Assembly: GCA_951406725.2 (NCBI GenBank) | Contig: OX597826.1 | Coordinates: forward strand, 84,072,001 to 84,136,000 | Origin: Octopus vulgaris | Taxonomy: Eukaryota | Reading direction: 5' to 3' | DNA: 64,000 nucleotides | Shown here: positions 13,036-18,132 of the stretch, one piece after another | Layout: every line of letters starts with the position of its first letter | Position numbering within the stretch: the stretch's first letter is position 1 | Notes under the pieces: generated by a model | Told to the model about the DNA's origin: nothing | What the model saw: only the letters and a program-made list of their open reading frames with translations | Databases searched by the model: none | Position numbers and translations under genes: made by a program

Positions 13036-14056
13036 TGGAACCTTCTGGAAAGGCCTGAGGAAGTTCCCTCATGCACATGCGCTAGAGACTGGGGAAGAAA
13101 ATTCTATCGCGTTCCTTGTTAGTGTCGTTGACTTGAGACACGGCTATTGAAGAGAAAGGACGTGTTAAACGTGTGATCAGCCATTCTCCTGTTCCAGACG
13201 CTTGAGATTTGACCTGCTCTGTTGCTGCTGAATTTGTTGTAAGAATCTTACAAATGTTAAAATTCAGCCTTGCTATATTGAACCAAGTGGATACCAATAT
13301 ACCAACGTGCTTGATTTGTAAATAAGAGAATAAAGAATCATATATATTTTTAAAGTTGCGTTTTGTTCCTGACTGGTAGTTTCTGGAAAAAAAAAGAAAG
13401 GAAATTGTGTTGCACCCAGGTTTCACCCCAAAAAGTGTAAAGAATCAACCAGTTCCCTTTACATGTCTAAACAAGTAATGATATTTTGAATGCGTTTACT
13501 ATGCATGTTTCAGATTGTTGTGTAATAGCAAAAAAAAAAAAGAACTCTGAATTCATCTCTTTTGCAACACCTTCAGTTTACACATTTCAAAAAATAAATA
13601 ATGCAGTTAAATCTTCCCTTTGTCTCTTTCACTCTCTGTAGATATTCTACCACTTCTGTGTCAACCTTCCATCGAGTAGGTGATTTAAGCTGCCCTAGAG
13701 CATATGTAAATTTAGTCACTATTTATATTTTGGAATGTCTTACCTGAAGGAGGTGTTGTGTAAGAGATAAATTTTTTGTTTATATTATGCAATTATCTAA
13801 AATGAGTATATCAAAATGCATTCAAATTATTACTTGGTTGACTTCATTGTTATCTGTTAAATGAATGACTCTATAGCAGTACAAGCTACTTAGTCTTTAC
13901 TCCATTTACACAGATGCTCTAACAAGGATTTGGAGTGGTTTGTTTTATTCAAATTGTAAAATTCTTACTCCATGCATCGCTTCTAAGTAAGACACACATG
14001 TGCATACACACATTTACATAGAAAAATTCATGTATATTGTTTTTCTTTTTAAATAG

Positions 14057-14105
14057 AAGACGAAGATGAAGCATGGGCCTACTTGCTGAGTTCTTGGGAG
14101 TCCAG
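14057..14105 (+). CDS. CAPN15: Calpain-15/SOL-like exon 4 (49 nt)
   Basis: aaatAG / GTatga. Encodes EDEDEAWAYLLSSWES. Phase 1 in, phase 2 out, which joins exons 3 and 5 in frame. Confidence 0.88.
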
Positions 14106-14371
14106 GTATGACTATATCAATGTTTGGTTCTAAAATTAGTTGTTGTGTTCTCTCAAATCATTCCAGATTCAGTAGACCTATATACAAGAATGTTTCATTC
14201 ATGATCTTCCATCAGTATAAGAGCATCTAAGACTATTTAGGAGCTTGAACCTCACAGAAGAAATTATATAAAAGTATAGGATTACTGTTGATATACTGTA
14301 CTTGAGGATATGTGCCCATCTCTAAGATTCTGGAAGCACAATTTAATGTGTGTGTATACATGTATGTATCA

Positions 14372-14528
14372 TGATTATCATTTAACATCCGTTGTCCATG
14401 CTGGTATGGGCAGGATGGTTTGACTAGGGCTGGCAAGCCGGAAGGCTGCACCAGACTGCAGTCTGCTTTGACATCGGTTTCACAGCTGTATGCCCTTCCT
14501 AATGCCAACCACTCTGTGAGTGTAATGG
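14372..14528 (-). mobile_element. RTE/SINE 3' tail, interrupted by (TA)n and the palindrome
   Basis: Reverse complement of the tail ggttggcattaggaagggcat..gatgttaaatgatgat. Confidence 0.8.
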
Positions 14529-14549
14529 TATATATATATATATATATAT

Positions 14550-15008
14550 ATATTTTGTTGTATTTTGGAATGGTCATTTTGCCAGTTTAGCCAATAAAAA
14601 CACACACACTATATATTTGGTGTTACTTTGCTTCAGCACTATTTATTTTTTACATTAATCTTAATCTTATTTCGGCTAGAGTTCTTTCGTCACACTCCTG
14701 TGACCGCATCAGTGCTACTTTGTTTTCTTCTTTCTTATTTGTGTCTCTCCTTACTAACCGTCAGCCATTTTGCATTTCAAATACAAAATGGCTGACGGTT
14801 AGTAAAGAGAGACACACAAATAAGAAAGAAGAAAGCAAAGGACAACTGATGAGATCACAGGAGTGTGACGAAAGAACTCTGGCCGAAATAAGATTAAGAT
14901 TAATGTAAAAAATAAATAGTGCTGAAGCAAAGTAACACCAAATATATAGTGTGTGTGTTTTTATTGGCTAAACTGGCAAAATGACCATTCCAAAATACAA
15001 CACAATAT
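14550..15008. repeat. ~460-bp near-perfect palindrome (putative Penelope-like inverted pLTR) in (TA)n
   Basis: Arms 14550-14777 and 14779-15008 are reverse complements with a few substitutions and a small indel; the centre is tttCaaa. Flanked by TA runs. The PLE assignment is inference. Confidence 0.9.
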
Positions 15009-15089
15009 CTGTTTCAACACATGATTTCACATAAAAAATCTTGCAAAACAAAACTATAAACGTATATATATATATACACACACACAACT

Positions 15090-16250
15090 GGGCCTCCTTA
15101 CCCAATGCCCTCTTCAAGCCATCATCTACCTAACTGCAGTATTTATTTTTAGTATTCTCTCTCTCTCTCTTCTGTGTTACCAAATTATCCTTTCTTCTCC
15201 ACCATCATACAATTTAACTCTCCCCATGCACTCTGTTTACCTTTTCCCTTGCATTCATTTCACCTAACCACCTACACATCTTTCTTTCACTTTTTGCCTC
15301 ATCACTATATCATTATTCGTATTCTGCTGCTCTTCCCCACTTTTGTACAGTCAGTCGTTCCCTGCTCTCCCCTTCTTTTCTCCCAACTTGTATGTACCAT
15401 TGATCGCCCCACCCATTGTCCTTTATTTACTACATCCATAGCTCAACCCCACTCAATCACTGTAGTGGTTGGGTAGGATTGAGGTATGGGTGCAAGGAGA
15501 AAGGAAGCATACTGCAGGGGGGGAACTGAAATTGTATGGTGGTGGAGAAGGAGAGAATTTGGCAACACAAAAGGATGATCACTGCAAAATGTGGATGGAG
15601 AGCTGATCAATATCTTCCCTCCAGCATATTCATCATCCCTCAACACTTCATTCATAATATTCATCTCCCTCACCCGTTCCTCTTCTCTAGCCATTCCTCA
15701 CTCTCCTTGTACACTCTTGCAACCTCTACCTTTCCATGCTCAGTAAGAAAGTAGAGTTTGCAAAGAACAATGTCCTATAACTAAAAGTGAAGCTAGACAA
15801 GAGGTTTATCTCCTCTCACTTCTACTCACCTTGTATCTTGAGGGTTCATTCTGATACCTCATCACTACTATTTTATCTCCCTTTCCAGCTCTACCTTGGT
15901 TAAGTCCACCCACTATGCTATACTGTAAGTAGCTATGTAACCCCTCTGAAGCAACAGATTTCTGTTCTGATCCTTTCTCTCATACTTTAACCTCTTCTCT
16001 AACATAGATCTGCCTCCCAATTAGTCCACGGAAATCTTACTCTTGCAAGCTGATGACGACCTCACTAGTGCAGGTGACCTGTATAAAGCACCCAGTACTC
16101 TCTGTAATGTGGTTGGTGTTAGGAAGGGCATTTAACTGAAGAAGCTGTTCTAACACAGTTATTGGAGCACCATTGCCATCCTTGAACCTGTCACATTCTA
16201 TCAAATCATTTAATCCATCCAGACAGATATTAAAAAATTAATACGATGAT
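15090..16250 (+). mobile_element. CT-rich tract plus RTE-type 3' tail (old LINE 3'UTR)
   Basis: Pyrimidine-rich tract followed by aaagcacccagtac..ggttggtgttaggaagggc. Confidence 0.6.
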
Positions 16251-16892: not shown

Positions 16893-17414
16893 GTGAGGAT
16901 TTTGTTCTTTGTTAAATATTGATTTCTAACATGTTCACAAGGTTTCCTGAAGTTGACAGACTAAATTTGTAATTGGGGCAAAGCTTCAGCCAGCTAAGGG
17001 TAACTTGGTGAGAGAACAGTGAGGTAGACAGGGCAATAAAAGAGAAGTGACAGGTTTTAGAAACAGTAAGAAAGTAGAGTTTACAAAGAACAATGTCCTA
17101 TAACTAAAAGTTTAGCTAGACAAGAGGTTTATATTACAACAGCAGAAACTGAAAGGAAGAGGTTTACCAATGTGTTACAGCATGAGGTGTTGCAGATAGC
17201 AAGACAGTTTATAACAGAGAGAAAAGTGTGTACGGGTAGATATTGATGTACTTCCACTTTGTGATTCTTGAAAGCTAGAATCAAGGAAGTGCTACCATAA
17301 AATATGGAAAATGCAACATTGACCCAACTGAGGGACTAGCTATCCTAGTTGACAGCAGTATGATAGATAAGGCTGACTGTATACTGATTTAAGTATTCTA
17401 CACTCATATTGACT

Positions 17415-18132
17415 GTAACTGTGGTGTGCAAGAGAGACGTTTGCGCTGGTATGGCCATGTGGCGAGAATGGATGAAGATAGTTGTGTGAAAAAGTGCCAC
17501 ACCCTAGCGGTTGAGGGAACCCGTGGAAGAGGCAGACCTGGGAAAACCTGGGACGAGGTGGTGAAGCACGACCTTCGAACTTTAGGTCTCACTGAGGAAA
17601 TGACTAGAGACCGAGACCTTTGGAAGTATGCTGTGCGTGAGAAGACCCGGCAGGACAAGTGAGACCATAACCCGTGGCCTCTGTAGCCAGTCCACTTATG
17701 CATACCTTTCCTTCTTGGGACACAAAACTCTACTTGTGAAGACCTGTTGAGGCAAGTGAAAATCGAAATCGATCAACATCAATGGAAATTGCAGCTGTGA
17801 TACCAGTGCCAGTGGTACATAAGAGAACCATCCAAACGTGGCCATAGCCAGCGCCACCCCGACTGGCCTCGTGCCGGTGATATGTAAAAAGCACCATCCG
17901 ATCGTGGCCGTTTGCCAGCCTCGTCTGGCACTTGTGCCGGTGGCATGTAAAAAGCACCCACTACACTCATAGAGTGGTTGGCGTTAGGAAGGGCATCCAG
18001 CCGTAGAAACATTGCCAGATCAGACTGGGCCTGGTGCAGCCTTCTGGCTTCCTAGACCCCTGTTGAACCATCCAACCCATGCTAGCATGGAAAGCGGATG
18101 CTAAACGAAGATGATGATGATGATGATGATGA
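17415..18132 (+). mobile_element. RTE LINE 3' fragment (family 1) with (GAT)n tail
   Basis: Encodes RRLRWYGHVARMDED..GRGRPGKTW, followed by 3'UTR repeats and a gatgatgat tail. Confidence 0.92.

What the first reader, a model, noticed from the sequence alone, without database searches (positions are those of the whole stretch)
14550..15008. 460-bp palindrome with a 1-nt loop carrying mirror-image hammerhead ribozyme-like cores, in calpain intron 4
Seen: two ~228-bp arms pair almost perfectly around position 14778. The unit sits between (TA)n runs, has a ~50-bp unpaired extension on the right, and truncates an RTE/SINE tail. The right arm reads CTGATGA-g-ATCACA-ggag-TGTGAC-GAAA (14846-14873). 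The left arm on the minus strand reads CTGATGC-g-GTCACA-ggag-TGTGAC-GAAA (14685-14712). Both match the hammerhead layout CUGAUGA / stem II / GAAA. Known: Penelope-like elements carry minimal type I hammerheads in pseudo-LTRs and often form inverted terminal structures. Inference: this is a PLE-derived inverted pLTR or non-autonomous element. In the pre-mRNA it would form a ~230-bp dsRNA about 450 nt downstream of exon 4, which would be a strong ADAR substrate and would sequester the ribozyme core. Stems I and III could not be convincingly drawn.
Basis: partly seen in the sequence, partly recalled or inferred. Interest (0 to 1): 0.72.

Follow-up and report, generated by a model that had tools for sequence, protein, structure and literature searches.

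The report
Mirror-image Penelope stub, decayed hammerheads
The 460-base mirror repeat in this octopus calpain intron is two short ends of a very abundant Penelope-like jumping gene joined head to head, a known kind of footprint that likely forms during insertion, and both of its self-cutting-RNA motifs carry mutations predicted to disable them.

Summary
The palindrome is real: 218 of 230 aligned positions match, centre 14778. Each arm is the 3' end of the pseudo-LTR of a Penelope-like element (PLE) with thousands of copies; full copies have a 1310-1312-codon RT + GIY-YIG frame between two such repeats. The 'unpaired extension' is the PLE tail (56 nt). One arm has it and the other lacks it in 39 of 39 scorable look-alike loci (50 examined); junction points vary, so the mirror arises anew at insertion. 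The hammerhead can be drawn fully (minimal type I), but both local copies have broken helices and would be locked in a 218-bp duplex. Family-level point: 2,741 exact copies, including the youngest subfamily, have C at core position 9, against 171 with canonical A, and helix III is not palindromic. Tests for cleavage footprints were inconclusive. Editing and long-read support could not be tested. The arrangement is published, and this scan has reported it several times on other octopus DNA. Ordinary; low interest.

The parts
14370..14528 (-). About 160-nt 3' fragment of an abundant RTE-type repeat (neighbour, not part of the element)
   Evidence: Six other copies in the window at 78-81% identity; no continuation right of the palindrome. 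'RTE' label is recalled from the frame at 17393-17659, not from a database hit.
14529..14553 (.). (TA)n target, left side
   Evidence: 27 of 31 scored look-alike loci sit in simple repeats
14550..14777 (-). Left arm: 5'-truncated pLTR ending at the short (no-tail) end; holds the start of the PLE frame (ATG at 14577-14575)
14674..14718 (-). Minimal type I hammerhead motif of the left arm: C at core position 9, 4 of 5 helix I pairs affected (2 remain drawn), helix II intact; antisense to the calpain transcript
14778..14778 (.). Head-to-head junction, in an AT-rich stretch where 62 loci have junctions within 30 nt
14779..15008 (+). Right arm: 5'-truncated pLTR; ATG of the PLE frame at 14981, frame shifted by a 2-nt insertion
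14840..14884 (+). Minimal type I hammerhead motif of the right arm: helix I 14840-45/14880-84, core 14846-52, extra G 14853, helix II 14854-69, GAAA 14870-73, 2-bp helix III, predicted cut 14879/14880; G10.1-C11.1 and one helix I pair broken
15009..15064 (+). PLE 'tail', 56 nt, further codons of the PLE frame; second of two recurrent 3' ends of the family
15063..15086 (.). (TA)n(CA)n target, right side; any target-site duplication is hidden in the TA run
   Evidence: 8-14 bp duplications visible at 4 non-repeat targets of 31 scored
14058..14106 (+). Upstream calpain exon (fourth calpain exon inside the window), boundaries approximate

Best explanation
The palindrome is a head-to-head pair of 5'-truncated pseudo-LTR ends of an abundant endonuclease-bearing Penelope-like retroelement, one with and one without the 56-nt tail, likely made in one insertion into a (TA)n repeat when both cut DNA strands primed reverse transcription, and its two hammerhead motifs are predicted to be inactive. 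Shown: identity of the arms, the two fixed 3' ends, the one-tail rule, variable junctions with short microhomology, preference for (TA)n, broken pairs in both local motifs. Inferred: the GIY-YIG domain nicks both strands; one strand primes at the short start site, the other at the tail start site; both copies abort after about 230-285 nt and anneal at an AT-rich microhomology. Predicted: in calpain pre-mRNA the arms would form a 218-bp duplex that hides the sense-strand motif and would be a passive ADAR substrate; no host function is indicated.
For: Right arm matches 40 of 40 scored genomic copies at 93-100% (2,424 candidates), all ending at one sharp 3' end and ragged at the 5' end. Six of 15 fetched long loci hold a 1310-1312-codon open frame flanked on both sides by this sequence at about 90% identity. 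The protein has RT motifs (DVVSLYPS, YVDD), a C-X4-C-X2-C linker and a GIY-YIG-like end with two internal Cys and downstream His (read against PMC8557442 passages); 7 and 6 of 47 homologues hit RVT_1 and GIY-YIG at E<=0.01; their profile hits a solved RT at 3.6e-5. One-tail rule: 39 of 39 scorable among 50 junction loci (includes this locus and one duplicated pair); 92 of 99 in a wider, non-random set of 185 loci. Among the first 100 listed motif hits, neighbours within 6 kb are head-to-head in 21 cases, tail-to-tail in 0, same-strand in 2. In 28 of those 92 loci the no-tail arm reaches more than 10 nt further 5' than the tail arm (17 the reverse, 47 about equal), which a single target-primed cDNA folding back cannot give. 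This locus's two arms differ at three subfamily-linked sites, as two templates would. Two adjacent RT start sites bounding the tail, cleavage and extension of both strands, and AT-rich targets are reported in vitro for another PLE (PMC11167929).
Against: The 1312-aa protein alone hits no Pfam family or PDB chain (fragments), and the 99%-identical P0002 hits RVT_1 only at 0.0042, below the cut-off. Rfam gives no hammerhead match at E<=10. Seven of 99 loci break the one-tail rule (4 both tail, 3 both short) and the automatic calls contain errors. The two arms here also share three rare substitutions and a 2-nt insertion in their outer halves, which points to one source element or later conversion between arms. 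The tail is 56 nt, longer than the 30-40 bp in the papers. Inactivity of the motifs is predicted from pairing only.
Confidence: 0.8

Rival explanations
1. Same element, other route: the mirror forms by self-priming or fold-back into a hairpin intermediate, and the endonuclease trims the tail from one arm on integration.
For: Proposed in PMC3846280 (self-priming; passages) and PMC8557442 (tail from EN-mediated resolution; passages). Junctions concentrate where the sequence is self-complementary: 62 and 24 loci in two such windows against 1 in a purine-rich window. Arms of one locus often share rare variants.
Against: Microhomology is expected under twin priming too. Simple fold-back of a target-primed cDNA cannot give the 28 loci whose no-tail arm reaches further 5'. 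The arms here differ at three subfamily-linked sites.
Confidence: 0.2
2. A dedicated non-autonomous palindromic element (MITE-like or retrozyme-like) that moves as a 460-bp unit.
For: 62 loci have a junction within 30 nt of this one, and the centre TATA recurs several times.
Against: Centres differ in sequence and length; arm lengths run from about 30 nt to over 4 kb; arms track the autonomous subfamilies; no tandem head-to-tail array here.
Confidence: 0.04
3. The hairpin has been co-opted as an editing- or ribozyme-dependent regulator of calpain splicing.
For: It lies on the transcribed strand about 445 nt after a calpain exon and folds into 218 pairs.
Against: Arms have drifted 3.7% apart like other old copies; six of the 11 arm differences fall in the 45-nt motif and damage it; it is one of thousands of copies.
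Confidence: 0.03
4. Assembly artefact (fold-back chimera of one arm).
For: Perfect 1-nt-loop palindromes can be artefacts (general knowledge).
Against: Arms differ at 11 places, end at the family's two biological ends, and sit in (TA)n like dozens of other loci, four with clear target-site duplications.
Confidence: 0.02

Closest known systems
Inverted, 5'-truncated insertion units of endonuclease-positive Penelope-like elements with a one-sided tail (Arkhipova et al. 2013, PMC3846280; Craig et al. 2021, PMC8557442; passages seen)
   Same: Head-to-head inverted pLTR, tail at one end only, pLTR holding the first codons of the ORF and the tail adding more, short target-site duplication, (TA)n targets, asparagine-rich stretch in the ORF.
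   Different: Tail 56 nt rather than 30-40; here the unit is only two pLTR stubs; clade (Neptune or Nematis) not resolved.
Minimal type I hammerheads of metazoan PLEs (Cervera and de la Pena 2014, PMC4209133; parts 1-2 of 4 read)
   Same: Short helix I, long helix II, unpaired base between 9 and 10.1, G10.1-C11.1, tiny helix III; pairs on opposite strands 100-700 bp apart are described there.
   Different: Helix III is AGAACU, not a palindrome; most copies of this family have C at position 9, and the youngest have a CUU cleavage triplet.
PAc Poseidon element of Anolis (Frangieh et al. 2024, PMC11167929; parts 1-2 of 4 read)
   Same: Two 3' ends inside the ORF start that bound the tail; AT-rich targets.
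   Different: Other clade (no Zn-finger linker); there the hammerhead overlaps the start codon and cleaves with protein help, here it lies about 100 nt upstream and activity is untested.

Membership tests
EN+ Penelope-like element | Single ORF with RT followed by C-terminal GIY-YIG endonuclease | tested here: met
   1312-codon frame with RT and GIY-YIG-type motifs; homologues hit RVT_1 (7 of 47) and GIY-YIG (6 of 47); the protein alone hits nothing, so the profile support is weak
EN+ Penelope-like element | ORF flanked by pseudo-LTRs that include the ORF start; tandem or inverted units | tested here: met
   6 of 15 long loci; ATG inside the repeat
EN+ Penelope-like element | [quoted passage not shown] | tested here: met
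   39 of 39 scorable of 50; 92 of 99
EN+ Penelope-like element | RT groups with PLE/TERT in a phylogeny | not tested
   no labelled reference set at hand
Neptune or Nematis clade | CX2-5CxxC linker before the EN plus CCHH motif | tested here: met
   C-X4-C-X2-C then Y-S-I..C..C..Y-V-G-E and His residues, by eye against PMC8557442 passages; does not tell the two clades apart
Hydra clade / Naiad clade | Hydra: no CCHH, CxCX5C linker; Naiad: N-terminal EN | tested here: not met
Minimal type I hammerhead (family motif) | Helices I and II, extra base after 9, G10.1-C11.1, GAAA, A15.1-U16.1, H17 | tested here: met
   drawn for L002 and L051; same layout 12 times in 72 related metagenome loci against 0.47 expected
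Minimal type I hammerhead (family motif) | Core CUGANGA with A9 | tested here: not met
   met in 171 exact copies and in the right arm; C9 in 2,741 exact copies and in the left arm
Minimal type I hammerhead (family motif) | Palindromic helix III for dimer cleavage | tested here: not met
   AGAACU; palindromic in 9 of 11 relatives
Minimal type I hammerhead (family motif) | Helix II covariation | tested here: inconclusive
   none inside the family (133 unchanged, 6 one-sided, 10 broken of 149 scored); different, pairing helices in related families
Hammerhead ribozyme (these two copies) | Intact helices and self-cleavage | tested here: not met
   pairs broken in both arms; cleavage itself not testable here
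Non-autonomous palindromic element (MITE or retrozyme) | Fixed unit length and junction shared by copies | tested here: not met

The most novel reading that the evidence does not exclude
The family to which this stub belongs spread to thousands of copies with a hammerhead whose core has C in place of the conserved A9 and whose helix III is no palindrome, and this variant still cleaves in the cell with help from the element's protein: a natural, active A9C core. A related element from a metagenome contig has C9 independently, and some truncated copies start at the predicted cut site.
Probability: 0.15. Interest if true: 0.55.

Novelty: new member of a known kind. Interest (0 to 1): 0.22.

Why it matters
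The locus itself is an ordinary retroelement footprint. The family is a usable natural experiment on two open points of PLE biology. First, hundreds of young inverted insertions with a near-strict one-tail rule allow twin priming to be tested against self-priming. Second, the youngest subfamily (mean pairwise distance 0.009, intact long frames) carries a non-canonical core, so either retrotransposition in the animal does not need self-cleavage (my preferred reading, about 0.55, in line with the in vitro result of PMC11167929), or A9C is tolerated in these minimal ribozymes. Such stubs would also supply many long intronic duplexes to cephalopod ADARs, untested here.

Tried and rejected
Rfam scan of 14000-15600: 43 matches at E<=10, none a hammerhead family; the best are generic miRNA hairpin models below their gathering scores. 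Pfam on four fragments and on the 1312-aa frame, and PDB with the single sequence: nothing. Sequencing runs: no RNA holder listed; contigs of 6 different runs laid in two calls break at the repeats and none bridges the palindrome, so neither long-read confirmation, presence in other species nor editing could be judged. Cleavage-footprint test (lead from e1-8622537): 23 of 24 head-to-head junctions near the predicted cut have one arm starting within -4..+3, but the pattern forces that range and the region is self-complementary; 8 of 32 TA-adjacent copies start exactly at the cut (rough Poisson p 0.001 for 6 of 23 direct junctions), but in a window anchored further 3' only 4 of 44 do, about 30 start downstream (counted by eye; p 0.035); flank-independent counts were 20 at the cut against 11 and 18 at two control positions, p 0.0013 after a rough capture correction, but 7 of the 20 are microhomology joins to the element's own inverted end and 2 are internal changes, and with 8 removed p is 0.14 (controls not cleaned alike). 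RT stalling at the hairpin would look the same. Verdict: inconclusive; at most 1-2% of copies. An alternative long helix II (GGUCA/UGGCC) was considered and dropped because it leaves no helix I or III. Paper searches: 'Penelope' + 'twin priming' + 'inverted' + 'tail' gave 1 unrelated review; 'hammerhead' with 'A9C', 'core variants', 'natural variation' gave no listing on A9C, and section 8 of PMC3088659 does not mention it in the text (its figure and supplements not seen). These searches cover open papers only, so they do not show that either point is unpublished. PMC13282606 (passages) lists recently active Penelope families in O. vulgaris but has no occurrence of 'hammerhead' or 'editing'. 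Repbase/Dfam could not be searched.

Full report
Observation. The sequence shows two arms, 14550-14777 and 14779-15008, that align at 218 of 230 columns with a single unpaired base, flanked by (TA)n, with 56 extra bases on the right (15009-15064). The locus lies on the sense strand of a calpain gene: four exons hit Peptidase_C2 in profile order and a short exon ending near 14105 fills the gap between profile positions 170 and 189. 'Intron 4' is window numbering. The closest named protein to the element is labelled Octopus vulgaris (99% identity).

What the arms are. The right arm found 2,424 candidates in the own genome; 40 were scored, at 93-100% identity. The 30 fetched copies share a sharp 3' end and are ragged at the 5' end. 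Longer copies run upstream into coding sequence. A piece of that protein found 2,722 candidates, with open frames up to 1,312 codons among the 150 listed. Of 15 long stretches fetched, six hold a 1310-1312-codon frame with a copy of the arm on each side at about 90% identity. The start codon lies inside the repeat (14981 in the window). The protein has RT motifs, a C-X4-C-X2-C linker and a GIY-YIG-type C-terminus with the CCHH residues, the marks of Neptune/Nematis PLEs in PMC8557442 (passages). Profile support is weak but consistent: nothing for the protein alone, RVT_1 in 7 and GIY-YIG in 6 of 47 homologues, and a solved RT at 3.6e-5.

How the mirror arises. The family has two 3' ends 56 nt apart. 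A pattern for head-to-head junctions within 30 nt of this one found 62 loci; 50 listed loci were examined, 39 could be scored at both ends, and all 39 have one short and one tailed arm; 6 belong to another repeat and 5 are cut short (the 39 include this locus and one duplicated pair). In a wider set chosen by several patterns, 92 of 99 scorable junction loci (185 examined) follow the rule, 4 have two tails, 3 none (automatic, with some errors). Junction centres vary and use short microhomologies. Neighbouring motif hits within 6 kb were head-to-head 21 times, tail-to-tail never, same-strand twice among the first 100 listed. Four of 31 scored loci show 8-14 bp target-site duplications; the other 27 sit in simple repeats. 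In 28 loci the tail-less arm extends further 5' than the tailed arm, which excludes fold-back of one target-primed cDNA there. Together with the two RT start sites and two-strand extension reported in PMC11167929 (parts 1-2 read), I infer twin priming. A self-primed hairpin trimmed by the endonuclease (PMC3846280, PMC8557442; passages) remains possible. At this locus the arms differ at three subfamily-linked sites yet share three rare substitutions and a 2-nt insertion; two differing pLTRs of one source element, or later conversion, would explain it; not resolved. Arm divergence of 3.7% suggests a few million years on the scale quoted in PMC13282606 (passages); rough inference.

The hammerhead. 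In intact copies it folds as a minimal type I motif: helix I GG(A)CCA/UGGCC, core, extra G, 6-bp helix II, GAAA, 2-bp helix III, the layout of PMC4209133 (parts 1-2 read), which also describes opposite-strand pairs 100-700 bp apart. Related elements in metagenome contigs carry the same motif 12 times in 72 loci (of 80 returned; the last 8 left out; 0.47 expected from 30 resamplings), with different but pairing helices II, A9 in 10 of 11 and a palindromic helix III in 9 of 11 (one of the 11, L186, is only a weak relative). Within the family there is no two-sided change in helix II (149 copies scored). Rfam does not detect it. Both local copies are damaged: the right arm lacks G10.1-C11.1 and one helix I pair; the left arm has C9 and a broken helix I. 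In calpain pre-mRNA only the right arm is sense, and it would be paired in a 218-bp duplex.

Family-level oddity. Exact 38-nt motif counts are 171 with A9 and 2,741 with C9. All 86 scored copies of the youngest subfamily (mean pairwise distance 0.009) have C9, against 0.041-0.045 for the older A9 and C9 groups, and helix III is not palindromic. That A9 matters for catalysis is recalled knowledge; PMC3088659 section 8 says core changes are usually assumed to disable the ribozyme but that some are tolerated. I tested whether truncated copies begin at the predicted cut site; the result is inconclusive (see Tried and rejected).

Not testable here: long reads, editing, expression.

Verdict. Other papers were seen only as search listings or passages (bioRxiv 10.64898/2026.07.22.740005). 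No supplements were read; those of PMC4209133 and PMC8557442 may list this family or a C9 variant. Interest 0.22.

Noticed in passing
L075, L078, L100, L103, L105, L110: A second, unrelated palindromic repeat family shares a 13-14 nt motif with this pLTR next to its centre (6 of the 50 junction loci examined); centre rich in TTGAAT/ATTCAA.
   Followed up: no
L051:3263-7201: The 1312-codon frame has a long asparagine-rich stretch (about residues 250-510) before the RT, recalling the N-rich inserts in Adineta Penelope ORFs (PMC3846280 passages), though at another position.
   Followed up: no
L115:2485-2540: A related PLE in a metagenome contig has a U3-A8 hammerhead core that also has C at position 9, with a palindromic helix III.
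   Followed up: partly
window 15169-15573: An older, decayed inverted repeat (79% over 86 nt) lies just right of the palindrome in the same intron.
   Followed up: no
G000, one search list: Well over 100 of the 150 listed copies give an identical score for the 124-aa probe, many as divergent pairs a few kb apart: a very recent burst.
   Followed up: partly
window 14779-14855 versus 14700-14777: The two arms carry different subfamily haplotypes in their inner 75 nt but shared rare variants in the outer half; unexplained.
   Followed up: partly
L090, L091: Two identical palindromic insertions with flanks 10 kb apart on one contig: a segmental duplication or an assembly duplicate.
   Followed up: no
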